A stretch of DNA of 53,482 bases from an uncultured Gammaproteobacteria bacterium (GTDB taxonomy: Bacteria > Patescibacteriota > Patescibacteriia > UBA2196 > CAYSSY01). Shown piece by piece: positions 3,610-44,518 of the stretch; position 1 is the stretch's first letter; the number at the start of each line of letters is the position of its first letter. The notes below the pieces were generated by a model, which worked only from the letters and a program-made list of their open reading frames with translations, did not search any database and was not told the origin of the DNA. The stretch lies in NCBI GenBank assembly GCA_964434055.1, contig CAYSSY010000002.1:16076-69557 (forward strand), given 5' to 3'. Both the position numbers and the translations under genes were made by a program.

Positions 3610-3825
3610 TCAAAATATTCTTAATTTTTTTATTAGTCTGTGAATGTGTGTTTTCCCGTCGCTGAGACGACCGTTGGTGAATGCTGAAGACGGCAATGGC
3701 CGATTCTCAGCGCTTTCCATATAAGATACAACATCTGTGTTGCCGCAACTGCATTCGCGGCAAACAGCCCCTTGACGGCTGACTAAATTTTGGGAACAAT
3801 TGCTGCACAAGTATTTACTGCTCAT
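3610..3825 (-). CDS. Small Cys-rich hypothetical protein (possible zinc-binding)
   Basis: SD AAGGGAG (3832-3838); CSNC...CRECSCG pattern; 71 aa. Confidence 0.6.
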   Translation of the reverse strand: MSSKYLCSNCSQNLVSRQGAVCRECSCGNTDVVSYMESAENRPLPSSAFTNGRLSDGKTHIHRLIKKLRIF

Positions 3826-20923: not shown

Positions 20924-21082
20924 ATGAGCACTGAAAACAAGTCACAGAAGTCAAAAAATTCCAGCAAAAAACTGGTCTCTTTACTCGCCGGCACTCTGCT
21001 GGTGGCAGCCACTGTCTATGTCGGCAAAAAAATCTTCGATCTCCTGGACGCACTCGATTTCCAAAACATCGAACTCAGTTAA
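20924..21082 (+). CDS. Small single-pass membrane protein (52 aa), absent from the supplied ORF track
   Basis: MSTENKSQKSKNSSKKLVSLLAGTLLVAATVYVGKKIFDLLDALDFQNIELS*; SD AGAGGT at 20914-20919; terminator downstream. Confidence 0.7.
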   Translation: MSTENKSQKSKNSSKKLVSLLAGTLLVAATVYVGKKIFDLLDALDFQNIELS

Positions 21083-26472: not shown

Positions 26473-28545
26473 ATGAACCTGTTTTCCACCGGCCGCTATA
26501 TTCTCATATCATCCTTATTACTCTTCGGATTAATTCTGAATATTTTTGTTTTTAACAATCTTATCATAGGTTTAATTGTTGGGACGCTCTATCTTCTTTA
26601 CTATAGTATCGCTCTTGGGTATATATATTTTTCTCATTACTCGCAACCAATTAAATTTTTAGGTGGACTGCAAATGACCTTAATACTGTTTATTGTGCTT
26701 GGTTCACTTGCTTACTACTTCTTTGGCCTGACAAACGTTGTTTGTTCTTTGCTCCTGATATTATTGACCTTTTTAATCTTTGCCTTAGGTCGCAATAATT
26801 TCTTTAGGATTTTTTCTAATATTCAGAATAATTTTTTAATTCCATCGCTCAAAGCCAGGGTTACTAAAATATTTTTTTTACAACATAGTAAAACGATAAT
26901 TTTAACAGGCATATATCTGGCGCTGGCAGCCCTTTCTTTTTTGATAATTTTTCAGCATCAAACTTCTGAAGCTATTCGTTCGCCTTGGGAAATATTACCC
27001 AGTGAATTTTTAGTAATTTATGCCTTATGCGGTCTGTTGTTGCTGTTAATTATTTTTAAAAAAAACAATAGCTGGTTGAAATATGTATGCCTCTCTATTT
27101 TTATTTTTTTGTCTTTATCAATCACCATGATTATTTACAAAATTGGCTATGGTTTTGATCCTTTTATCCATAGAGCAGCGGAAAAAGTAATTTTTAATTA
27201 TGGAGCCATTAATCCAAAAAGCTGGTACTATATCGGCCAATATGCCTTGGTAACCATGCTGGCAAAAATCTTCTACCTTAACTCTTCCCTCTTAGATAAA
27301 ATTTTACTGCCCATTCTATCGGGCTTATTACTACCAATAATTGGCTGGTTGTATTTTTATAAAAATAAATTAGTGCAAAGCGCCTGGTTACTGCCTCTGG
27401 CTATAATCTTTTTACCAATGAATAACTATCTGACCCTGCCTCAAAACCTGGCTAATTTTTTTCTTTTAATCTTTATAGTGTCTACTGGGCAAGATAAAAA
27501 GGTTTTTAATCTTTTATCAATCCTATTTGTTTTGGCAATAATTTTTATTCATCCCTTAAGCGGCTTGGTAGCATTAATCATACTTATTGTTAATTCTGTT
27601 TCTTTGTTAGAGAATATAAAAAAACAGCTTAAGCTAGTAATCTATGCCTTATTGTCATGTCTTGTTCCGCTAGCCTTTTGGCTTGGTTCATTTCTATTAA
27701 AAAATTACACTCTAATTTGGCAAAATGGTTTTAAAAATACCGCCTGGCTGGAACTCAACATTAAATGGGTCAAATTTAATTCAATCTATCATTTTGTTTA
27801 TCTCTATAAATTCAATATTATAATAATTTTCCTTCTCTTGGTGGCTTTTGGCTGGTATTTGAGTAAAAAACATTTATATTTAAAAACTTTTATTATCGTC
27901 CTTATTAATATTATTTTTTTGCAATTATTAAAATTTTCATCATTGATTTCTTACGAACAAAATGATTTTACAAAAAGATTGATTAATATAGCATTAATAG
28001 TGCTGACACCCTATTTTTTAATCAGTCTTGACTTTATCTGGAATAAATTTTTAAATAATAAAAGAACTCTTGCTCTAACCAGCTTAATTATTGTTTGTTT
28101 ACTCTCGATTAACTTATATTTAATGTATCCTCGGGTCGATGCCTTTGAAAAATCACGCGGTTATTCCACTTCCTTAAATGATATCAAAGCTGTTAGAGAA
28201 ATTGCATCCAGACAGTTAAAGAATCAAGATTATATTGTCCTGTCTAATCAGGCGGTCTCGGCTGCAGCGATTCAAGAGTTCGGTTTTAAAAAATACTACT
28301 CTACTCCTGAAGGTCCTCTCTTCTATTATCCAGTCCCGACCGGTTCACCACTTTATAAAATTTACCTAGACATGATTTATTATGGACCAACACTAAATCA
28401 AGTTAAAGAAAAAACCGGTGTTCAAACAGTTTATTTTGTTATCAATGATTATTGGCTCGATGCCGAAAAAAGAATTGTTGAGACTAGGACAATTGCCAAC
28501 GAAGCATTTAATATCAATAAAAAAATTTGGATTTTTAAATTTTAA
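26473..28545 (+). CDS. Large polytopic membrane protein, possible GT-C glycosyltransferase
   Basis: Numerous TM segments, GFDPFIH loop, IHPLSG, and a C-terminal soluble domain. Confidence 0.55.
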   Translation: MNLFSTGRYILISSLLLFGLILNIFVFNNLIIGLIVGTLYLLYYSIALGYIYFSHYSQPIKFLGGLQMTLILFIVLGSLAYYFFGLTNVVCSLLLILLTFLIFALGRNNFFRIFSNIQNNFLIPSLKARVTKIFFLQHSKTIILTGIYLALAALSFLIIFQHQTSEAIRSPWEILPSEFLVIYALCGLLLLLIIFKKNNSWLKYVCLSIFIFLSLSITMIIYKIGYGFDPFIHRAAEKVIFNYGAINPKSWYYIGQYALVTMLAKIFYLNSSLLDKILLPILSGLLLPIIGWLYFYKNKLVQSAWLLPLAIIFLPMNNYLTLPQNLANFFLLIFIVSTGQDKKVFNLLSILFVLAIIFIHPLSGLVALIILIVNSVSLLENIKKQLKLVIYALLSCLVPLAFWLGSFLLKNYTLIWQNGFKNTAWLELNIKWVKFNSIYHFVYLYKFNIIIIFLLLVAFGWYLSKKHLYLKTFIIVLINIIFLQLLKFSSLISYEQNDFTKRLINIALIVLTPYFLISLDFIWNKFLNNKRTLALTSLIIVCLLSINLYLMYPRVDAFEKSRGYSTSLNDIKAVREIASRQLKNQDYIVLSNQAVSAAAIQEFGFKKYYSTPEGPLFYYPVPTGSPLYKIYLDMIYYGPTLNQVKEKTGVQTVYFVINDYWLDAEKRIVETRTIANEAFNINKKIWIFKF

Positions 28546-29902: not shown

Positions 29903-31474
29903 CTATTTCTTCGGTAAAAAAAATTTTTTAAAAACCTCAATCTCCGGTGATTTTAAATAATAAGTTAAAATAACATAGGTTAAAAGACCCAAACCGCCAG
30001 CAAACAACCCTTGTATTAACACACCCCAAAAGGTAGTCATATCAACAAAAAAAGAAAAAAATGGCTTAGCGATCTGAGTTACTAAAGCAGCCACTAAGGT
30101 AGCGAGACTAATCTTAATGACTGAAGCGAGAATTTGTTTCTCATCTAAATAACCAGCTCTCTGTCTTAAAATAATGAAAAGTAGAAGAACGTTAATAATA
30201 CTGGCAATGGAAAAAGCCAAAGCTAAGCCCTCAACACCAAATTTTTTCGTCAAAAAAAGTGATAAAATTAAATTTAAAATTAATGTAATTAGACTGATGA
30301 AAAAAGGAGTCTTGGTATCGTGTCGAGCGTAAAAAGCACGTGTAAAAATCGGCTGCACCCCTTGGGCAAAGAGAGATAAACAAAAAAATCCCAACGAATC
30401 AGCGGTTAAGATGGTGTCAGTCCAATCAAAATTACCAGCACCGAGAGTAACACGTACTATCTGAGCACGTAATAAAATTATTATGGCACTTAAGGGAATA
30501 ATTAGATAAAGCACCCGCCGAGTCGCCACTGAAAACTGAATCATATACCCCTCTTGATCGCCAGCACTATAACTTTCAGAGAAAGCCGGAAAAGCAGCGA
30601 GTGCTATTGAAATTGCAAAAATACCAATAGGAAAACTTTGCAAATTAAAAGCAAAATTAAATATGGCAAGAGAGCCTGCAGCCAAAGTTGAAGCAATAAT
30701 AGTTATAACAATCTGGTTAATCTGATTAATACCTAAAGCTACGGTGCGCGGCAACATTAACTTAATTACTTGTTTAACTTCTGGTAAATGCCAATTAAAG
30801 TGTCGGGACCAAAAAAAACCAGCCGCCATAATTGGTGGCACTTGAATCATCAAATGAAAAAAAGCTCCTAAAACTACCCCCCAAGCCAAACCAATGATCC
30901 CCAAAGGTTTAACCAAAAAAATAATTCCAAAAATTATGCCAAGATTATACATAATCGGTGCCAGGGAAAAAACAGCAAATTTCTTTAAAGAGTTTAAAAC
31001 ACCGCTAAAAACATTGCTAATACCAAAAAAAATAATGCTTAAAAGCATGATCCGTGTCAGTTTAACTGTTAGCTCAATTTTTTCCTGACTAAATCCTGGA
31101 GCAATTATTACCATCAGCTGACTAGCACCAAAAAAACATACCACCCCTAAAATTATTAAAACCAAAGTTAAAATATTTATAATGCCAGAAGCCAATTGCC
31201 AGGCTTTATGTCTTTCAGTCTCTGCTTGCCAAAGTTGAACAAAAACCGGAATAAAAGCCGCTGATAATGCGCCCAAAACAAGAGTGTTGAAAATTAAATC
31301 TGGCAGTTTAAAAGCGGCAAAATAAACATCAAGAATGTCTCCGGCGCCGAAATGCGAGGCCAGTAACCGATCACGAATTAAACCTAAAAAACGGGAAATA
31401 ATACTTAAAGCAGCAATTATGACTGCACCGCCGCCAATTGTCGTTTTTAATTTTTTAGATATTACCTGATACAT
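29903..31474 (-). CDS. murJ: Lipid II flippase MurJ (MviN)
   Basis: SRFLGLIRDRLLASHFG, AAFKLPDLIF, AAFIPVF, QSFPIGIF, RAFYARHDTKTP. Confidence 0.94.
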   Translation of the reverse strand: MYQVISKKLKTTIGGGAVIIAALSIISRFLGLIRDRLLASHFGAGDILDVYFAAFKLPDLIFNTLVLGALSAAFIPVFVQLWQAETERHKAWQLASGIINILTLVLIILGVVCFFGASQLMVIIAPGFSQEKIELTVKLTRIMLLSIIFFGISNVFSGVLNSLKKFAVFSLAPIMYNLGIIFGIIFLVKPLGIIGLAWGVVLGAFFHLMIQVPPIMAAGFFWSRHFNWHLPEVKQVIKLMLPRTVALGINQINQIVITIIASTLAAGSLAIFNFAFNLQSFPIGIFAISIALAAFPAFSESYSAGDQEGYMIQFSVATRRVLYLIIPLSAIIILLRAQIVRVTLGAGNFDWTDTILTADSLGFFCLSLFAQGVQPIFTRAFYARHDTKTPFFISLITLILNLILSLFLTKKFGVEGLALAFSIASIINVLLLFIILRQRAGYLDEKQILASVIKISLATLVAALVTQIAKPFFSFFVDMTTFWGVLIQGLFAGGLGLLTYVILTYYLKSPEIEVFKKFFLPKK

Positions 31475-31512
31475 TAATTTAATTCTATCATTTAACTTAA
31501 AATTTAAAAAGC

Positions 31513-31764
31513 AAAAAAAACCGGTAGGCTGCCGATTCTTGTCACCGAGTCTTAGACCATCACTTTAAATGATAATATAAGTATTGGGCGACTATCCAAA
31601 GTTTAAAGGGATAATGTTTTGAAGAGAAGAGAGATTTTGATTTTTTTACCTGTTATCGATGAAGAAAACAGGATTTGTTTATCTCCTCTAAACTCGTTTA
31701 AACCGGCAGCCTACCGGCTTCTCCTATTTTTAGGCAGAGCGCGCTTGATTGTGGTCTTTGATCT
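31513..31764 (-). ncRNA. Candidate structured non-coding RNA, unit 1 (~250 nt)
   Basis: Consensus promoter upstream; 14-bp closing stem 31521-31534/31704-31717 followed by T8 on the minus strand; internal stems with G-U pairs on the minus strand; no ORF or known family recognised. Confidence 0.6.
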
Positions 31765-31770
31765 TACTTA

Positions 31771-31798
31771 ATTATACTATTTTTTTAAAAATTGTCAA
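31771..31798 (-). promoter_or_regulatory. Sigma70-type promoter for RNA unit 1
   Basis: TTGACA (31793-31798), 16-nt spacer, TATAAT (31771-31776). Confidence 0.75.
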
Positions 31799-31858
31799 TT
31801 CTATTAAGATTTTATACAATATTAATACTGACCAATCAATTAAAACGCTAAACCTTTA

Positions 31859-32289
31859 TTAAGGAAAAATTTGGAGGTTAATCCGAAGTAAATTTAAAAA
31901 AATTTAGCTTCGATCCCCCAAAGACGAATCTTTAGTAGTGTCACTAAAAATTGTGACACGGTATTAAAGAGTTTCGTTGGTTATAAACGCACGGGGTACA
32001 TTATTCCCAACCTTAAGTCGCTTTAAAAAAGCAACGATCGGGAACGAGCACTATTTAGTCAAGAACAGACCAGTAAGGACCGGTCAAGGTGTCTTGATTA
32101 AAAAACAAGCGCCTAACCTCCAAATTTTTCCTTAAAAACACAAAAAGCAGCTTAAAGAGAAATATCTAAAGCCGCTTTTTGTGTTAGGTGTTAAGACAAA
32201 TATCTGTTTTATCTCGACACCTAAAAATTTAAGGCAAATCTCTCTTCGTTGAAATAAATATTTAAATTATTTTTTCAAAATTAATTTAA
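31859..32289 (-). ncRNA. Candidate structured non-coding RNA, unit 2 (~430 nt)
   Basis: Perfect promoter upstream; two 5' hairpins (32137-32185, 32185-32223); perfect 22-bp stem 31859-31880/32114-32135 enclosing a multibranch domain; no ORF. Confidence 0.6.
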
Positions 32290-32295
32290 CTGCTT

Positions 32296-32324
32296 ATTAT
32301 ACTCCTGTTAAACAAACTTGTCAA
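32296..32324 (-). promoter_or_regulatory. Sigma70-type promoter for RNA unit 2
   Basis: TTGACA (32319-32324), 17-nt spacer, TATAAT (32296-32301). Confidence 0.8.
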
Positions 32325-32387
32325 GTCAAATGCTAATTAATTTTATTTATAATTAGCAAAAAAGAGCTAATTTATTTAAAAAAAGCC

Positions 32388-32416
32388 TTGACAAATCCTA
32401 AAAAAAGACTTATAAT
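32388..32416 (+). promoter_or_regulatory. Sigma70-type promoter for the DUF11 adhesin gene
   Basis: TTGACA (32388-32393), 17-nt spacer, TATAAT (32411-32416). Confidence 0.8.
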
Positions 32417-32545
32417 AGCAAGTTAATAATTAAACTTTAATATAGAGAAGAGAGTTTGAGAATTAACTGTAAATTTCAAAAACTCTCATCTTTAAAAAAA
32501 GGGAGTTTTATTTTTTATCAATTTTGATAACTTAAAATTAAATAT

Positions 32546-35509
32546 ATGAAAAAATCTCAAAAAATATTTATTATTCTAGCTTTATCTTTAATTATAGCTA
32601 TTGTGTCTGTAAAAGATGTTTCTGCAACATCCAATCTCTGCGAAATAAACGCAGCTATAAATTATTCAGGGACGGATTATGTGAGTGTCTGCGCTTTTCA
32701 TAGTACCTGTCCTCAAGAAAGACTTAACGCAGCAACTGTTAATGTCTCTACAGCTGGCAACTACGAAGTCGAGGCTTATGTTTGGTACAACAGTGGTGAT
32801 GAACAAAAAAATGAAAGTTATTTTTTAGTTGTCAAAAACGCTAATGGCAATAAATCTTATCCTCTGGACGCTAATGCCGGCAAATATAAAGTAATCGCTG
32901 ATGATCCGGGCGATCCCCATGGTGCCACTCGCAAATCAGGAGTCTTTTATTTTGACCAAGGCATAAATACTATTGAACTTCATCATTATATCCAAATAGC
33001 CAGTCAGTATCCGGCCTATGTTGTGGCAGGACCAATTACCGGGCCAGAAAGTGTAAAAATTAAATCTTTAAAAATTAAATGCACTGTAACAGACCCGTGC
33101 ATAAATAACCACAAACCGGTTGCTAATGCCGGTTCTGATCAAACTGTCTTTTTGGGTGATACCGTTCAATTTGACGGCTCGCTGTCTAGCGATGCTGACG
33201 GTGACCAATTAACTTTTAAGTGGTATCTTGATAACGGTGCGGTTTTAGACGGCGACAAAGCTAGTTATGCAAATTTTGCCTTAGGCACACGTTATGTTAC
33301 CCTAACAGTTAATGATCAATGTAACTTGGTCCAAGACTACGTTTTAGTGCACGTCAATCCGAAAACCATAAATATAGTCAGCGATAAATTAGTTTCCGAC
33401 AATGATGAGATAAAAACTCACAGTAATACTTCTCGGCCAGGTGAGGAAATAATCTACACTTTAAAGATTGAGAATAAAAATTCTACCGCTATAAAAAATA
33501 TTCGACTGGAAGATAATTATGATCAAAACTATCTGATTGTTTTAAATCCAGATGGCGGTAGTGATAATGGTGATAAAATCAGTTGGCAACTTGGCGATCT
33601 TTCTTCTGGCGCTGTTGTCGAAAAAACAGTCAGAATGAAAATAAAAGATTCGATTACCAACAACCTAAACTTTAAAAACTACCTCTCTTGTCAGACAGAT
33701 AACGCTGGTAGCTGCGCTAATGAGGTAACTACTCAAGTGGTCTTACCGAATGTACCAGCTGAACTTTTTATCAGCAAAAGCGTTTCTGATAACAATGAAT
33801 CAAAAGTGGCTAACAATGTTGCTGAACGTAATGAATTATTAACTTATTACTTACGAGCTGAGAATCGAAGCCAGACGACAATAAAAAATTTGAGAATTGA
33901 AGATGATTATGATCAAAATTATACTGAAGTTATCTCATGGGAAACTGGCGGTAGTCATAATGGTGACAAAATTTCCTGGTCATTAGGAGATTTAGCACCC
34001 TATAGTGCTGTGGAAAAAACTATGATTGTGCGCGTTAAAGGTGATGTTGCTGATGAAACAAATTTTAAAAACTTTTTGCGTTCATATGCTGATAATGTCA
34101 GCTCTCAACAAAAAGAAGTCACAACCAGAATTGATGTTGTTAATCAAGATCAAGTTACATTGGCTCTCGATAAGACTGTTTCCGATAGTGATGAAACCAA
34201 TAAAGACTATACAAGTTCTCACAAAAATGAAGTTTTAACTTACCGCTTAGATTATCATGTTAATGGTCGCGGAATTGCCCGCAATGTTGTCCTGCGTGAT
34301 GATTATGACCAGCGCTATGTGCGTATTATTTCCACTGACGGCGGTTCAAACAATGGTAATGAGATTGTTTGGCAGTTGGGCAACCTGGAATCGGGTTACC
34401 ACACCACCCGTTATGTGACTGTCCAGATTGTTAATGATTTTGACAATAGCCTGGAAATAAGTAATTGGGCTTATTTAAGAGCTGATAACGCACCGGCCGT
34501 TGAAGACCGGGTCAGAACAAACATTGAAGGCAATATAGACAATCAAAATGCTTATTTAAATATTGTCAAAACTGTTTTTGACAATGACGAAAACGAAGTT
34601 CATCGCAACTCGGCTAATGTTGGCGAACAGTTGACTTATAAAATAAAAATTTCTAATAACTCCACAATGGTTGCCCAAAACGTCATTTTAACTGATGATT
34701 ATGATCAGAATAAAATTGTCATTATTTCCTTTACTGGCAATGCTAATGACAACGGTGACCAACTATCTTGGTCGATTGGAAATCTCGATCCAGGCAGGAC
34801 CGCTGAACGGTTTATAACCGCCAAAGTGAAAGAAAATCTGAGCGGTAATCCAATAGTCATTAATAACGTGGCTAAAGTTACCGGCAGTAATATTCAGACC
34901 ATGTCAGACCAAACTGTCACTACTGTAATTGCCAAACCAGAACTAAACGTCACCAAGACTGTCAGTGACAATGATGAATTCGATAGCCATAATAATACTG
35001 CTGAACCATTAGAAACATTACTGTATACTATAACTGTTGAAAATACTGGTTTAACAACTTTAGAAAATGTCGTGGTGATTGATAATTATGATGAGCGCTA
35101 TCTTAAAATTATTTCGACTGATAGTGGTACTGACGACGGACATGTTATTCGTTGGCAAATCAACAGTTTAAAAGCAGGTGAACAAACTACTAGAGTTTTA
35201 ACCGTTCAATTGAATGACCAGGTTAGAAATGGCCTAAACGTTCTTAATCGTGTGACAGCTACTGCAAACAATGTTAACCCTGATAATGATAGTACTTTAA
35301 CTTCTGTTTATATTCCCGGTGTTACAATAACCGCAACCTCAACTACTCCATATGCCCCGCGGACTGGTGCTGGTTTAATTTTTCCGGCTTTAGGCGGCCT
35401 GTCAGCTGGTTCACTCGCTGGTTTATCTTCATTCGCTTATCTTAAGAAAAAGAAAAAAGCCAAAAAAAATGATAATATTACAACTTCAATCAGATTTAAC
35501 CCGGCCTAA
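32546..35509 (+). CDS. Large secreted surface protein: PKD domain, five DUF11-like repeats, C-terminal sortase-type sorting signal
   Basis: Signal peptide; PKD (PVANAGSDQTV..FDGSLSSD); five ~130-aa repeats K-x-V-S-D-x-D-E...D-D/N-Y-D; APRTG + hydrophobic segment + KKKKKAKK. Confidence 0.85.
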   Translation: MKKSQKIFIILALSLIIAIVSVKDVSATSNLCEINAAINYSGTDYVSVCAFHSTCPQERLNAATVNVSTAGNYEVEAYVWYNSGDEQKNESYFLVVKNANGNKSYPLDANAGKYKVIADDPGDPHGATRKSGVFYFDQGINTIELHHYIQIASQYPAYVVAGPITGPESVKIKSLKIKCTVTDPCINNHKPVANAGSDQTVFLGDTVQFDGSLSSDADGDQLTFKWYLDNGAVLDGDKASYANFALGTRYVTLTVNDQCNLVQDYVLVHVNPKTINIVSDKLVSDNDEIKTHSNTSRPGEEIIYTLKIENKNSTAIKNIRLEDNYDQNYLIVLNPDGGSDNGDKISWQLGDLSSGAVVEKTVRMKIKDSITNNLNFKNYLSCQTDNAGSCANEVTTQVVLPNVPAELFISKSVSDNNESKVANNVAERNELLTYYLRAENRSQTTIKNLRIEDDYDQNYTEVISWETGGSHNGDKISWSLGDLAPYSAVEKTMIVRVKGDVADETNFKNFLRSYADNVSSQQKEVTTRIDVVNQDQVTLALDKTVSDSDETNKDYTSSHKNEVLTYRLDYHVNGRGIARNVVLRDDYDQRYVRIISTDGGSNNGNEIVWQLGNLESGYHTTRYVTVQIVNDFDNSLEISNWAYLRADNAPAVEDRVRTNIEGNIDNQNAYLNIVKTVFDNDENEVHRNSANVGEQLTYKIKISNNSTMVAQNVILTDDYDQNKIVIISFTGNANDNGDQLSWSIGNLDPGRTAERFITAKVKENLSGNPIVINNVAKVTGSNIQTMSDQTVTTVIAKPELNVTKTVSDNDEFDSHNNTAEPLETLLYTITVENTGLTTLENVVVIDNYDERYLKIISTDSGTDDGHVIRWQINSLKAGEQTTRVLTVQLNDQVRNGLNVLNRVTATANNVNPDNDSTLTSVYIPGVTITATSTTPYAPRTGAGLIFPALGGLSAGSLAGLSSFAYLKKKKKAKKNDNITTSIRFNPA

Positions 35510-35530
35510 AATATTCGTTGATAAAGAAAT

Positions 35531-36361
35531 ATGAACGGTAATCCTTATAATACTAACCAACTTGATGTTAAAAAAAGCAGCAAAAGAGCAATTGTTTTAT
35601 CATTAATAACTTTTGCCATTGTTTCTTTTGGCGCTGGTGTGACCATCTTTGCCTTACAGCAAAAAAACATTCAAGACAATAAATTATTGGCACTAAATTA
35701 TAGTTCTCCCATTAGTGGCATGGTTCTGGGAGCAAAAACAAATGTTAATCAAACTGTAAAAATTGCCGTTTATTCAAAAGAACTTGATCCTGATCAGGAT
35801 GGTTTGAATAATAAAATGGAAGAAATTTTAGGAACTGACCCGAACAATCCTGATACTGACAAAGACGGCAAAAAAGATGGCTATGAAATGAATGTTGGCG
35901 ATGATCCAACATCATTGGGAAAAATAAATACTTCAATTAATATCCCAAAAATAAAAATAACCGCACCGGTTATTTGGTCAGCTTCAACCGACGAAGCCAG
36001 TATTCAAAAAGACCTGCAAAAGGGAGTTATCCATTATCCAGGAACTTCTATGCCTGGTCAAACTGGTAATTCATTTATAACTGGCCATTCTTCTGACTAC
36101 AGTTGGACCAAAGGAAATTACAAAAATATTTTTAGTAATCTCCATAAACTTAATGTGGGTGATTCGGTAAAAATTGAATATAATCTACACAACGGACGAC
36201 GCATCACTTATGAATACAAAATAATTTCAGAAGACATAGTAATGCCGAACGACAGCCGTTTATTTGAAAAAACCAATAAGAAAATCTTGACCTTGGTCAC
36301 TTGTTGGCCGCTCAACTCGAGCTGGAAACGATTAATGTTTAAAGCGGTGCTGGTGGAATAA
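35531..36361 (+). CDS. Sortase with N-terminal TM and DxDxDG calcium-binding repeats
   Basis: GVIHYPGT..PGQTGNSFITGHS (His), LTLVTCWP (Cys), KRLMFKA (Arg); DPDQDG and DTDKDG repeats. Confidence 0.9.
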   Translation: MNGNPYNTNQLDVKKSSKRAIVLSLITFAIVSFGAGVTIFALQQKNIQDNKLLALNYSSPISGMVLGAKTNVNQTVKIAVYSKELDPDQDGLNNKMEEILGTDPNNPDTDKDGKKDGYEMNVGDDPTSLGKINTSINIPKIKITAPVIWSASTDEASIQKDLQKGVIHYPGTSMPGQTGNSFITGHSSDYSWTKGNYKNIFSNLHKLNVGDSVKIEYNLHNGRRITYEYKIISEDIVMPNDSRLFEKTNKKILTLVTCWPLNSSWKRLMFKAVLVE

Positions 36362-44203: not shown

Positions 44204-44437
44204 TTAGTCAAAAAGAGGCAATTCTTCTTCGTGTGGCTGACTGTTAAAAGCGGCTTTACCACCAACGTTTATAATCTCTTCCTGACCCGCGGGTACGTTG
44301 GCTAGTCTAATGCCGTTGAAATGTACGTCTGGTACCTCAACACCCTTTATTCCACTAACCATCACGTTGGGTTTGAGTGTTTCTTTTCTAACAGCTTCAA
44401 CTAGAGCCCTAATTTCCTCAGCTGATAAACTAGACAT
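44204..44437 (-). CDS. Hypothetical protein (orphan, 77 aa)
   Basis: SD GGAGGT (44442-44447) supports a start at MSSLS (44437). Confidence 0.65.
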   Translation of the reverse strand: MSSLSAEEIRALVEAVRKETLKPNVMVSGIKGVEVPDVHFNGIRLANVPAGQEEIINVGGKAAFNSQPHEEELPLFD

Positions 44438-44518
44438 TAAAACCTCCATGTTGTGTTAAGTATAAAAATAAAGAACTGGCTTTTAATAAATAAATATTAA
44501 ATAATTATCAACGAGCTG

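What the first reader, a model, noticed from the sequence alone, without database searches (positions are those of the whole stretch)
31513..32324. Two tandem, promoter-driven, highly folded non-coding RNA candidates between murJ and the adhesin-sortase locus
Seen in sequence: this gap has no ORF of 60 aa or more, yet it holds two minus-strand units with the same layout. Each starts at a consensus promoter (TTGACA-N17-TATAAT at 32296-32324; TTGACA-N16-TATAAT at 31771-31798). Each has a long-range closing stem around a multibranched interior. Non-Watson-Crick positions in about eight stems read as G-U on the minus strand and A-C on the plus strand; I saw one terminal exception. That agrees with the promoter orientation. 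I do not recognise tmRNA, SRP, 6S, T-box or common riboswitch cores. Inference: an undescribed large structured RNA system, either two RNAs or one ~780-nt transcript, divergent from a sortase-anchored adhesin gene.
Basis: partly seen in the sequence, partly recalled or inferred. Interest (0 to 1): 0.88.

Follow-up and report, generated by a model that had tools for sequence, protein, structure and literature searches.

The report
Structured RNA locus upstream of murJ
The 1-kb gene-free gap very probably encodes two or three strongly promoted, tightly folded non-coding RNAs that match no catalogued RNA family, and they resemble a previously undescribed structured RNA that sits upstream of murJ in a few related Patescibacteria.

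Summary
Gap 31475-32545 has no ATG reading frame of 20 aa or more. It carries three of the window's four perfect TTGACA-N16-18-TATAAT promoters; the fourth drives RNase P RNA. It also folds more stably against shuffles (z -6.9 to -8.6) than RNase P RNA itself (z -5.8). Rfam, ARAGORN, and the phage and plasmid searches found nothing.

New points:
- Both minus-strand units are co-directional with murJ. Unit 2 ends in a long-stem/U8 terminator about 31 nt before the murJ ATG.
- The first unit splits into a 5' two-hairpin module and a core closed by a 22-25 bp helix.
- A GA-rich element (5' module and adhesin leader) is complementary to an exposed CU-rich element in unit 2.
- Five murJ loci of a Patescibacteria clade (MurJ 57% identical in L050) carry a homologous 400-700 nt RNA behind a consensus promoter upstream of murJ. 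It has covariation support and an invariant unpaired AAAAUCUCUCUCCUC.
- The window has that 15-mer once, with one mismatch, in the most accessible part of unit 2.

Covariance models of that family do not detect the window's units, so kinship rests on motif, topology and context. No close homologue of the window's own RNAs was found. Function is inferred: a base-pairing regulatory RNA.

The parts
32296..32324 (-). Promoter P1, TTGACA-N17-TATAAT (12/12); predicted start near 32289
   Evidence: One of 4 perfect sites in 53 kb; another drives RNase P RNA.
32133..32289 (-). 5' module ('unit 0'): AU-rich 5' end, the GA element, then two hairpins (32224-32184 and 32185-32137). The second hairpin is followed by U5 and is terminator-like.
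   Evidence: Fold z -7.2. Inverted repeats I6 and I19. The two hairpin tops share AGAUAUUUNUCUU (D8). The best hit of family model R2 in the gap is this second hairpin (16.4 bits).
32235..32247 (-). GA element GAAGAGAGAUUUG in the 5' module. Its first 12 nt (GAAGAGAGAUUU) are exactly complementary to AAAUCUCUCUUC in unit 2.
   Evidence: Unpaired probability 0.58 against 0.29 for the whole RNA.
31856..32138 (-). Unit 1 core: five hairpin arms around a junction, closed by a 22-25 bp helix. The helix contains UUUGGAGG / CCUCCAAA.
   Evidence: MFE -109.8 kcal/mol, z -8.6; interior alone z -6.3. Model R1 built.
31771..31798 (-). Promoter P2, TTGACA-N16-TATAAT (12/12); predicted start near 31764
31506..31764 (-). 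Unit 2: four-way junction closed by a 17-bp perfect helix. G-U and A-U pairs extend it to 27-32 bp, running into a U8 tract (31520-31513). This forms an intrinsic-terminator-like 3' end about 31 nt before the murJ ATG.
   Evidence: MFE -84.3 kcal/mol, z -6.9; interior z -4.3 on minus vs -1.6 on plus.
31624..31643 (-). Single-stranded A-rich/CU-rich element AAAUCAAAAUCUCUCUUCUC, the most accessible segment of unit 2. It matches 14 of 15 positions of the invariant motif of the murJ-upstream RNA family.
   Evidence: unpaired probability 0.80 vs 0.42; only match in the window; 0 of 100 shuffles.
32388..32416 (+). Promoter P3, TTGACA-N17-TATAAT (12/12), for the adhesin-sortase operon; predicted start near 32423
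32423..32545 (+). Adhesin 5' leader. The GA element (32443-32460) forms the 5' arm of a hairpin with 32475-32494. The alternative pairing AAAACUCUC (32479-32487) with GGGAGUUUU (32501-32509), followed by U6, is terminator-like.
   Evidence: (I8)
29903..31474 (-). murJ (lipid II flippase), immediately downstream of unit 2 on the same strand. A possible own extended -10 (TGATAGAAT) lies at 31491-31483.
   Evidence: Pfam MurJ E 1e-102. Sequence read. The -10 is my reading, not a scan hit.
32546..36361 (+). Divergent operon: a 987-aa PKD/DUF11 surface protein and a sortase. The surface protein has a C-terminal YAPRTG motif, a hydrophobic stretch and a K-rich tail.

Best explanation
The gap encodes strongly transcribed, stable, highly structured non-coding RNAs on the minus strand.

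Layout:
- A 5' RNA of about 430 nt starts at P1. It comprises a two-hairpin module carrying a GA-rich element, then a five-arm core closed by a 22-25 bp helix.
- A 3' RNA of about 255 nt starts at P2 (unit 2). It ends at a long-stem/U8 terminator just before murJ.
- P1 transcripts may read through to give about 780 nt.

I take the locus to be a divergent counterpart of an undescribed RNA family. That family lies behind a consensus promoter upstream of murJ in a clade of Patescibacteria. Its 3' domain displays an invariant single-stranded AAAAUCUCUCUCCUC.

Inferred mechanism: the exposed CU-rich element of unit 2 is a base-pairing seed for GA-rich elements.
- It is complementary to the 5' module over 12 nt. 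That module could act as an intramolecular partner or a competitor.
- It is complementary to the leader of the divergent adhesin-sortase operon over 11 nt, with further pairs beyond a 1-nt bulge. Capture of that arm opens the leader hairpin and lets a terminator-like hairpin form.
- On this reading the RNA tunes surface-protein expression, much as RNAIII or FasX do.

Shown: sequence features, folding statistics, motif sharing, and covariation in the sister family. Inferred: transcription, RNA ends, homology of the window's copy, pairing in vivo, and the regulatory outcome.
For: - Promoters: 3 of the 4 perfect sites in 53 kb are in the gap, and the fourth drives RNase P RNA.
- Folding: z -6.9 to -8.6, and -13.6 for 786 nt. 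This exceeds RNase P RNA (-5.8) and all other intergenic regions.
- Interiors fold significantly without the closing stems, and better on the minus strand.
- There is no ATG ORF of 20 aa or more.
- Unit 2 ends in a terminator-like site, with a 17-bp core stem read from the sequence.
- Between strains, the only differences inside the units are one substitution in an unpaired run and two 1-nt indels in hairpin loops.
- GAAGAGAG or its complement occurs 3 times in the gap and once elsewhere in the window; 6 of 1000 shuffles match this.
- The CU element is the most accessible part of unit 2.
- The adhesin leader is the best of 43 5' regions for duplex formation with the CU element, at -21.8 kcal/mol. 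Cofolding produces the terminator-like alternative.
- Sister family: L050, L051, L052, L053/L054 and L119 are homologous to one another. In the four loci where that end is present (L050-L053) the RNA lies behind an 11-12/12 promoter. The L050 copy folds at z -8.0.
- Sister-family covariation: 89-91% of cells paired, 18-19 pairs with double changes, 0 of 500 shuffles, and slid controls at 33-54%.
- The family's invariant 15-mer is found once in the window, in unit 2, with 0 of 100 shuffles.
- The GA/CU partners differ between the family (GGAGAGAG/CUCUCUCC) and the window (GAAGAGAG/CUCUCUUC) by one compensatory G-C to A-U change.
Against: - There is no transcript evidence.
- No homologue of the window's own RNAs was found beyond near-identical same-species contigs. 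Their structures therefore rest on single-sequence folding.
- Family models R2 and R3 do not detect unit 2 or unit 1. The best hit is 16.4 bits, for a bare hairpin.
- When unit 2 is aligned to the family's inner 3' domain, only 11 of 24 consensus pairs form. This is within the shuffled range.
- The leader duplex (-21.8) is only slightly better than the next 5' region (-20.6), and about seven non-self 60-nt windows of the 53 kb score as well or better.
- The leader's terminator-like hairpin is weak: -8.2 kcal/mol with a 13-nt loop.
- The family loci have no adjacent adhesin, so adhesin control cannot be the conserved role.
- The RNA is absent from other MurJ relatives of similar distance (L048, L049, L122, L001-L022).
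Confidence: 0.45

Rival explanations
1. The RNAs are real, but they are not base-pairing regulators. They would be structural or RNP-forming RNAs, or self-assembling ones in the manner of raiA, OLE, ROOL or GOLLD. The GA and CU elements would then be intramolecular or intermolecular tertiary contacts within the RNA itself.
For: - The RNAs are long and ornate, with multi-arm junctions closed by long helices.
- In the sister family the GA and CU motifs lie on one RNA and are both invariant.
- The family loci have no neighbouring adhesin.
- The promoters are of the same grade as the one for RNase P RNA.
Against: - The CU element is left unpaired in both the consensus and the single-sequence folds.
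- The adhesin leader carries an exact 11-nt complement at a structurally meaningful place.
- There is no positive evidence for a protein partner or for multimerisation.
Confidence: 0.25
2. Unit 2, or the whole 780 nt, is a cis-acting leader or attenuator of murJ. Transcription from P2 or P1 would be stopped or allowed through at the U8 terminator in response to a ligand, a protein or an RNA.
For: - It has the same strand and immediate adjacency: the terminator lies about 31 nt before the murJ ATG.
- The scan lists no promoter between the terminator and murJ.
- The murJ-upstream position recurs in the sister family.
Against: - In the family, murJ has its own 10-11/12 promoter and a conserved leader hairpin downstream of the RNA.
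- In L052 and L053 a whole gene lies between the RNA and murJ.
- Most MurJ relatives have no long upstream gap.
- In the window both alternative foldings of the 3' arm still give a stem followed by U8, so there is no obvious antiterminator.
- A TGATAGAAT extended -10 sits 7 nt before the ATG (my reading).
Confidence: 0.12
3. The plus strand is the transcribed one. A distal promoter at 31792-31820 would give a long structured 5' leader for the adhesin operon.
For: - A 10/12 promoter-like site lies on the + strand.
- The plus strand also folds well: z -8.7 with the closing stem and -4.7 for the interior.
Against: - The + site is largely the mirror image of P2's TTGACAA.
- The three 12/12 sites already account for both directions.
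- Interior z-scores and MFEs favour the minus strand, especially for unit 2 (-4.3 vs -1.6).
- Family RNAs are on the murJ strand. Reverse-strand scores of their models are much lower.
Confidence: 0.05
4. The units are DNA-level elements rather than RNA genes. They would be inverted-repeat mobile elements (MITE-like) or relics inserted next to strong promoters.
For: Each unit is bounded by long inverted repeats and is 215-285 bp long, which is a typical MITE size.
Against: - Neither unit is flanked by a direct repeat (sequence).
- There is no second copy in 53 kb.
- The one JGI metagenome pattern scan, using a unit 1 pattern, recovered only the same locus.
- The interiors are significantly structured on their own.
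- No transposase lies nearby.
Confidence: 0.05
5. One unit is a highly divergent housekeeping RNA (6S, SRP RNA or tmRNA) that the Rfam models miss in this lineage.
For: - The promoter grade equals that of RNase P RNA.
- None of these RNAs is found elsewhere in the window.
- 6S RNAs diverge quickly (own knowledge).
Against: - No such family appears even at E<=10 on the 1.2-kb stretch.
- ARAGORN is negative.
- The predicted shapes are multi-arm junctions, not a rod with a central bubble or an SRP helix 8.
- The window covers only 53 kb of the genome, so those genes can lie elsewhere.
Confidence: 0.04

Closest known systems
murJ-upstream structured RNA of a Patescibacteria clade
   Same: - It lies upstream of murJ on the same strand.
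- It sits behind a consensus sigma-70 promoter.
- Three of the five members have an internal promoter-like site before the 3' domain.
- The 3' domain is closed by a long helix running into a U-run.
- Inside that domain come a helix, a hairpin, and then a single-stranded A-rich/CU-rich element (14 of 15 identical).
- One domain is closed by UUGGAGG/CCUCCAA.
- GA-rich partners are present.
- The L050 copy folds at z -8.
   Different: - There is no significant covariance-model or nhmmer hit between the family and the window's units.
- Helices do not align.
- Motif order differs.
- Unit 2 has two extra arms.
- The window's murJ lacks the family's own promoter and CCUCA...UGAGG leader hairpin.
- The window has a divergent adhesin operon that the family loci lack.
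Staphylococcus aureus RNAIII (own knowledge)
   Same: - It is a long, multi-hairpin regulatory RNA.
- Long-range helices close separate domains.
- It has its own strong promoter, divergent from a neighbouring operon.
- Exposed pyrimidine-rich segments pair with purine-rich 5' regions of mRNAs for surface proteins.
   Different: - There is no sequence or model similarity.
- No encoded peptide is present here.
- No quorum-sensing genes lie nearby.
- The complementary site in the adhesin leader lies about 90 nt upstream of the start codon, not at a ribosome-binding site.
Streptococcal pilus-regulating small RNAs: FasX (PMC7900414) and srn135 (PMC8465756)
   Same: They are small RNAs that control sortase-dependent surface structures through the 5' regions of pilus or adhesin mRNAs.
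   Different: - FasX is much shorter and pairs with ribosome-binding sites.
- srn135 is processed from the rrgA 5' UTR.
- Neither shows homology to this locus, and the proposed mode here (leader refolding or termination) differs.
Large ornate bacterial RNAs of unknown function (OLE, ROOL, GOLLD, raiA; 10.1101/2024.12.08.627333, PMC10861870)
   Same: - They are hundreds of nucleotides long, with many-armed structures.
- They are probably abundantly expressed.
- Their function is unknown.
- They are restricted to particular lineages.
   Different: - None of their Rfam models scores here at E<=10.
- The window's locus has separately promoted modules.
- Its own structure has no covariation support.
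Riboswitch or attenuator leaders
   Same: A structured RNA lies between a promoter and a downstream gene and ends in a terminator-like stem followed by a U-run.
   Different: - No known aptamer core was found.
- The 'terminator' is the helix joining the RNA's own ends.
- No mutually exclusive antiterminator was found.
- In related loci the downstream gene has its own promoter or is separated by another gene.

Membership tests
Any Rfam 15 family | Covariance-model score at or above the family's gathering score | tested here: not met
   Only RNase P (11017-11450) passes in the window. In 31400-32600 the best match is 26.5 bits against a cut-off of 70, and all matches are hairpin-level.
6S RNA | About 150-210 nt rod made of a closing stem, a large central bubble and a terminal stem; a hit to an Rfam 6S model | tested here: not met
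   No 6S hit at E<=10. Unit 2 folds as a four-way junction with an 83-nt two-hairpin 3' side.
tmRNA / SRP RNA | For tmRNA, a tRNA-like end plus a tag reading frame. For SRP RNA, the helix 8 motif with a GNAR loop. | tested here: not met
   ARAGORN finds none. No Rfam hit at E<=10.
MITE / inverted-repeat mobile element | Terminal inverted repeats | tested here: met
   25-nt and 17-31-nt inverted repeats bound units 1 and 2.
MITE / inverted-repeat mobile element | Target-site duplication and multiple dispersed copies | tested here: not met
   No flanking direct repeats. No other copy in 53 kb. The JGI pattern scan returned only the same locus. The complete genome was not available.
cis-regulatory leader of murJ | Lies between a promoter and the regulated gene on the same strand | tested here: met
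   P2 at 31798-31771, terminator at 31540-31513, murJ ATG at 31474.
cis-regulatory leader of murJ | Mutually exclusive terminator and antiterminator; the gene depends on read-through | tested here: inconclusive
   Both the long-range and the local pairings of the 3' arm precede U8. A possible own -10 exists for murJ. In related loci murJ has its own promoter or is separated from the RNA by another gene.
murJ-upstream RNA family (L050 type, defined here) | Position upstream of murJ on the same strand, behind an 11-12/12 sigma-70 promoter | tested here: met
   Window. Family.
murJ-upstream RNA family (L050 type, defined here) | Invariant AAAAUCUCUCUCCUC, unpaired, after a hairpin inside a 3' domain closed by a long helix plus U-run | tested here: met
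   14 of 15 identical at 31624-31638 (-), the only match in the window, 0 of 100 shuffles. Unpaired probability 0.80. The topology appears in the centroid fold. Family consensus.
murJ-upstream RNA family (L050 type, defined here) | Significant hit by covariance models of the family's two conserved domains | tested here: not met
   R2 and R3 score family members at 81-162 bits. In the gap they give at most 16.4 and 13.9 bits, on bare hairpins. The unit 2 row forms 11 of 24 consensus pairs, within shuffled controls.
trans-acting base-pairing sRNA (RNAIII/FasX-like) | Own promoter and terminator, an accessible seed, and complementarity to a target 5' region | tested here: met
   All are predictions from sequence.
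trans-acting base-pairing sRNA (RNAIII/FasX-like) | Demonstrated expression and target regulation | not testable with these tools

The most novel reading that the evidence does not exclude
The window's RNAs and the L050-type RNAs together form a new, Patescibacteria-specific class of large structured RNA. The class is genomically tied to the lipid II flippase gene. It would use an invariant exposed CU-rich element to pair with GA-rich elements, and so couple cell-envelope or surface-protein expression (here a sortase-anchored adhesin) to an RNA switch. As far as I know, that would be the first regulatory RNA system proposed for these ultra-small episymbionts.
Probability: 0.3. Interest if true: 0.75.

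Novelty: new variant of a known kind. Interest (0 to 1): 0.6.

Why it matters
To my knowledge, almost no non-coding RNA biology beyond the universal RNAs has been described for Patescibacteria (CPR), which have tiny genomes and live attached to host cells.

A 0.4-0.8 kb RNA locus kept in such a compact genome is unlikely to be idle. It sits behind promoters as good as the RNase P RNA promoter, and a sister family shows covariation.

Its position is suggestive. It lies between the lipid II flippase gene and a sortase-anchored adhesin operon, and it is complementary to the adhesin leader. That gives a concrete, testable link between an RNA and the cell surface, which mediates attachment.

The sister family defined here (five loci, two covarying domains, one invariant 15-mer) is a ready seed for a proper family search.

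Tried and rejected
- Rfam at gathering score and at E<=10: nothing relevant. ARAGORN: nothing.
- blastn against phage and plasmid collections: only AT-rich noise.
- MurJ-anchored loci from GTDB genomes (L001-L028): no similar sequence, mostly no long upstream gap, and no hit with R1. The one structured gap there (L006 7424-7943) is a small ORF plus terminators.
- Same-species contigs (L029-L031, L037) differ at only 4 positions in the gap, so they are useless for covariation.
- The 73%-identical MurJ relative (L032) has only 76 nt upstream, and that stretch is unrelated.
- The single metagenome scan used a loop/junction pattern of unit 1. It returned the same locus plus five chance hits.
- Viral-contig scans with four patterns gave only chance hits.
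- A search with the adhesin N-terminus found only PKD-domain matches and no orthologue.
- Attempts to extend beyond the window failed: only short contigs were found, or the protein was not on record.
- Whole-RNA duplexfold comparisons were uninformative for long RNAs.
- I considered and rejected the following: small protein genes; a tandem or TIGR-like array; retron, intron or guide-RNA readings, because no RT, Cas, TnpB or IscB gene lies nearby; lysine, cobalamin and other riboswitch cores.
- A possible CCCC/GGGGG pseudoknot in unit 1 remains untested. Both runs are predicted to be mostly unpaired.
Full report
**Context**

The window is AT-rich (about 35% G+C). Its MurJ is at most 51% identical to MurJ of species-representative genomes, all of them Patescibacteria/Moranbacteria-type MAGs. 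The gap 31475-32545 lies between two genes:
- murJ (29903-31474, minus strand; Pfam MurJ E 1e-102).
- A plus-strand operon for a 987-aa PKD/DUF11 surface protein and a sortase. The surface protein ends in YAPRTG, a hydrophobic stretch and a lysine-rich tail.

Neighbouring genes are cell-envelope functions: UDP-glucose dehydrogenase, a glycosyltransferase-like protein, an L,D-transpeptidase and a lectin-like protein. No transposase, reverse transcriptase or Cas gene is nearby.

**Observation check**

The gap has no ORF of 60 aa or more. It also has no ATG-initiated ORF of 20 aa or more. The TTG/GTG frames of 21-52 aa match no Pfam family.

The two minus-strand promoters are exact consensus matches at the stated coordinates. 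The pattern TTGACA-N16-18-TATAAT occurs only four times in the 53 kb, against 0.04 expected:
- One site (11486-11459, minus) sits 9 nt upstream of the RNase P RNA found by Rfam (11450-11017).
- The other three are in this gap. The third is on the plus strand (32388-32416) and serves the adhesin operon.

In this genome, therefore, a perfect promoter marks at least one known stable RNA gene.

The long-range stems are real, and folding is exceptional:

| Region | Result |
|---|---|
| Unit 1 | -109.8 kcal/mol, z -8.6 |
| Unit 2 | -84.3 kcal/mol, z -6.9 |
| 157-nt 5' module | z -7.2 |
| Whole 786 nt | z -13.6 |
| Unit 1 interior, closing stem removed | z -6.3 |
| Unit 2 interior, closing stem removed | z -4.3 |
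| RNase P RNA (control) | z -5.8 |
| Eleven other intergenic stretches | z +0.8 to -4.6 |

Three of the other longer, G+C-richer gaps contain plausible small protein genes.

G-U pairs in minus versus plus MFE structures are 6/1, 10/4 and 12/10, and the RNase P control shows no asymmetry (13/15). The minus strand is better supported by the promoters and by the interior z-scores (-6.3 vs -4.7 and -4.3 vs -1.6).

**Anatomy**

Reading the minus strand, the locus has the following parts.
- P1 predicts a start near 32289.
- A 157-nt 5' module follows. It has an AU-rich start, the element GAAGAGAGAUUUG (32247-32235) and two hairpins.
  - The hairpin tops share AGAUAUUUNUCUU.
  - The second hairpin (17 bp) is followed by U5, so some transcripts may end near 32133.
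- The core (32138-31856) is a junction of five hairpin arms closed by a 22-25 bp helix containing UUUGGAGG/CCUCCAAA.
- No terminator follows the core. P1 transcripts probably continue across P2.
- P2 predicts a start near 31764.
- Unit 2 is a four-way junction.
  - Its 5' and 3' ends pair in a 17-bp perfect helix.
  - G-U and A-U pairs extend this helix into a U8 tract (31520-31513), giving an intrinsic-terminator-like end about 31 nt before the murJ ATG.
- On the plus strand, P3 predicts a 123-nt adhesin leader.
  - Its main hairpin pairs UAGAGAAGAGAGUUUGAGAA (32443-32462) with UUCAAAAACUCUCAUCUUUA (32475-32494).

**GA/CU elements**

GAAGAGAG or its complement occurs four times in the whole window, three of them in the gap:
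- In sense in the 5' module.
- In sense in the adhesin leader.
- As the complement in unit 2.

Only 6 of 1000 dinucleotide shuffles of the gap give any comparable triple.

In unit 2 the complement lies in AAAUCAAAAUCUCUCUUCUC. This is the most accessible stretch of that RNA, with unpaired probability 0.80 against 0.42 overall.

Pairing potential of this element:
- Its best duplex among 43 5' regions of the window is with the adhesin leader (-21.8 kcal/mol). The runner-up is close (-20.6), and about seven non-self 60-nt windows in the 53 kb score as well or better.
- Cofolding shows that capture of the leader's GA arm frees AAAACUCUC (32479-32487). That segment then pairs with GGGAGUUUU (32501-32509) ahead of U6, forming a weak terminator-like hairpin.
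- The element also matches the 5' module over 12 nt (-19.2 kcal/mol).

**Search for relatives of the window's own RNAs**

None was found beyond the same species.
- Three other contigs with an identical MurJ differ from the window at four positions of the gap. These are one substitution in an unpaired U-run, two 1-nt indels in hairpin loops and one change in the P2 spacer. The flanking genes diverge by 0.3-0.4%.
- The only closer MurJ relative (73% identical) sits on a contig that ends 76 nt upstream of the gene.
- A covariance model of unit 1 (R1) found nothing in 22 MurJ-anchored loci, in the loci from the pattern scans, or in the 57-58% relatives.
- The single metagenome scan returned only the same locus.
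- The adhesin has no orthologue in the protein collection.

**A related family upstream of murJ**

One MurJ relative at 57% identity (L050) has an 898-nt gene-free stretch upstream of murJ on the same strand.
- It starts with a perfect TTGACA-N17-TATAAT promoter that has a TG extension.
- It folds at z -8.0.

Its MurJ clade was then sampled.
- L051, L052, L053/L054 and L119 carry homologous sequence. Examples are 72% identity over 506 nt and 84% over 127 nt, with nhmmer E-values down to 1e-53.
- In L051-L053 this sequence lies behind 11-12/12 promoters. The L119 contig is cut at that end.
- The RNA is 400-700 nt long.
- In L052 and L053 another gene lies between the RNA and murJ.
- In these loci murJ has its own 10-11/12 promoter. 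In L050, L051, L053 and L119 it also has a conserved CCUCA...UGAGG leader hairpin.
- The RNA is absent from L048, L049 and L122 and from the GTDB loci.
- It is not in Rfam.

Two domains of this RNA align well.

| Domain | Alignment | Defining features | % of cells paired | Pairs with changes on both sides | Shuffles reaching this | Slid controls |
|---|---|---|---|---|---|---|
| Middle domain | A5 | Closed by UUAUUGGAGGG/CCCUCCAAUAAUUG; invariant GGAGGGAGAGAG | 88.8% | 18 of 61 | 0/500 | 41-54% |
| 3' domain | A4 | Closed by AAAAAGCUGCG/CGCAGCUUUUU running into a U-run; inner helix, a hairpin in which all six pairs covary, then an invariant unpaired AAAAUCUCUCUCCUCA | 91.2% | 19 of 51 | 0/500 | 33-51% |

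**Is the window's locus a member of this family?**

For membership:
- It has the same position and strand relative to murJ.
- It has the same promoter grade.
- An internal promoter-like site precedes the 3' domain in three of the five family members (L050 9693-9720, L051 2720-2748, L052 2244-2273), as P2 does in the window.
- The 3' domain has the same topology: a long closing helix into a U-run, an inner helix, a hairpin, and then a single-stranded A-rich/CU-rich element.
- The family's invariant 15-mer occurs once in the window, with one mismatch. It lies on the minus strand at 31624-31638, inside unit 2's accessible segment (0 of 100 shuffles).
- Among the 54 loci held at that point, the degenerate motif occurred only in these RNAs, apart from one hit inside a coding region.
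- Both have a domain closed by UUGGAGG/CCUCCAA.
- The CU and GA partners differ between family and window by one compensatory change: CUCUCUCC/GGAGAGAG against CUCUCUUC/GAAGAGAG.

Against membership:
- nhmmer profiles and the covariance models R2 and R3 score family members at 81-162 bits. In the gap they give at most 16.4 bits, matching only the stem of the 5' module's second hairpin.
- A forced alignment of unit 2 to the family's inner 3' domain forms 11 of 24 consensus pairs, no better than shuffled controls.
- The order of the shared short motifs differs.

I therefore treat the window's locus as a probable distant or analogous counterpart, not a demonstrated member.

**Mechanism**

Shown by tool results:
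- The sequence features.
- The folding statistics.
- The motif statistics.
- Covariation in the sister family.

Inferred:
- The minus-strand RNAs are made and are stable.
- The exposed CU element is the functional site.
- It pairs with GA-rich partners. The partner within the locus is the 5' module. In this species there is a second partner, the adhesin leader, where pairing would refold the leader towards a terminator-like hairpin or otherwise change its fate.

This logic resembles RNAIII (own knowledge) and the streptococcal pilus regulators FasX and srn135.

The family loci lack an adjacent adhesin. The ancestral role therefore cannot be adhesin control, and the adhesin leader may be a lineage-specific target.

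The main rival reading is that the GA and CU elements are contacts within a structural or self-assembling RNA. A murJ attenuator role is less likely. In related loci murJ has its own promoter or is separated from the RNA by another gene. In the window, both foldings of the 3' arm precede the U-tract.

**Novelty and verdict**

The feature is real and ordinary explanations fail:
- Coding sequence.
- A known RNA family.
- A MITE.
- A repeat array.

The kind of thing, a promoter-driven structured bacterial RNA with a pyrimidine-rich seed, is known. The sequence family and its murJ association in Patescibacteria appear to be undescribed in Rfam 15 and in the papers I searched.

Confidence by claim:
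- About 0.8 that at least one minus-strand structured RNA is made here.
- About 0.5 that it is related to the L050-type family.
- About 0.3 for the adhesin-leader pairing mechanism.

Noticed in passing
window 11017-11486 (-): RNase P RNA (class A, 149 bits) has a perfect TTGACA-N16-TATAAT promoter ending 9 nt upstream. Its 3' end (11017) overlaps the mechanical start (11034) of ORF 9607-11034, so that ORF probably starts further downstream.
   Followed up: partly
window 32332-32373: A palindrome, GCTAATTA-N10-TAATTAGC (32332-32357), plus a third GCTAATTT (32366-32373), lies between the back-to-back -35 boxes of P1 and P3. It could be an operator or a relic terminator. A similar GCTAAT...ATTAGC hairpin precedes the RNA promoter in L050 and L051 (weak 61% alignment over 108 nt).
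   Followed up: partly
window 32155-32167 and 32193-32205: The two hairpins of the 5' module carry nearly the same 13-nt top (AGAUAUUUCUCUU / AGAUAUUUGUCUU on the RNA strand). This suggests a duplication or a shared binding site.
   Followed up: no
window 31792-31820 (+): A 10/12 promoter-like site lies on the plus strand. Its -35 is the mirror image of P2's TTGACAA, so it may be a divergent promoter or a by-product of the near-palindromic -35.
   Followed up: partly
window 31912-31921 and 31990-31999 (-): In unit 1, a GGGGG run in a junction and a CCC(C) hairpin loop are both predicted to be mostly unpaired. They could form a pseudoknot. A search pattern built on them found no relatives.
   Followed up: partly
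window 32055-32141 (-): The 5' strand of the unit 1 closing helix reads as a perfect Shine-Dalgarno sequence (GGAGGU). It is followed 7 nt later by UUG and a 17-codon frame, and the 3' strand reads ACCUCC like the 16S 3' end. This is probably coincidental, and the site is buried in the helix.
   Followed up: no
window 3610-3825 (-), 20924-21082 (+), 44204-44449 (-): The other long, G+C-richer intergenic gaps contain plausible small protein genes with purine-rich ribosome-binding sites. They encode a 71-aa Cys-rich protein, a 52-aa protein with a hydrophobic stretch, and an 81-aa protein.
   Followed up: partly
window 28397: The same-species contig L029 has a 9-nt (3-codon) insertion relative to the window, inside the 690-aa protein of unknown function (26473-28545). 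That protein has no Pfam or NCBIfam match.
   Followed up: no
L050 9968-9987; L051 2969-2986; L053 2966-2985; L119 640-657: A conserved hairpin, CCUCA-N8-10-UGAGG, lies in the murJ 5' leader of the related clade, just after murJ's own 10-11/12 promoter. It could sequester a GAGG ribosome-binding site. The window's murJ lacks it.
   Followed up: no
L050 9566-9700: The L050 copy of the family RNA carries a G+C-rich insertion of about 130 nt between its two conserved domains. The insertion has repeated CGCGAACCGC and GTCAGCG motifs and is absent from the other members.
   Followed up: no
L006 7424-7943: A Moranbacteria relative has a structured 520-nt gap (z about -6) downstream of murJ. It holds a small ORF with a strong ribosome-binding site and several terminator-like hairpins. 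It is unrelated to the finding.
   Followed up: partly
L042 770-1000: An IMG/VR contig hit by chance contains a dense array of CTGCCGGT-type short repeats.
   Followed up: no
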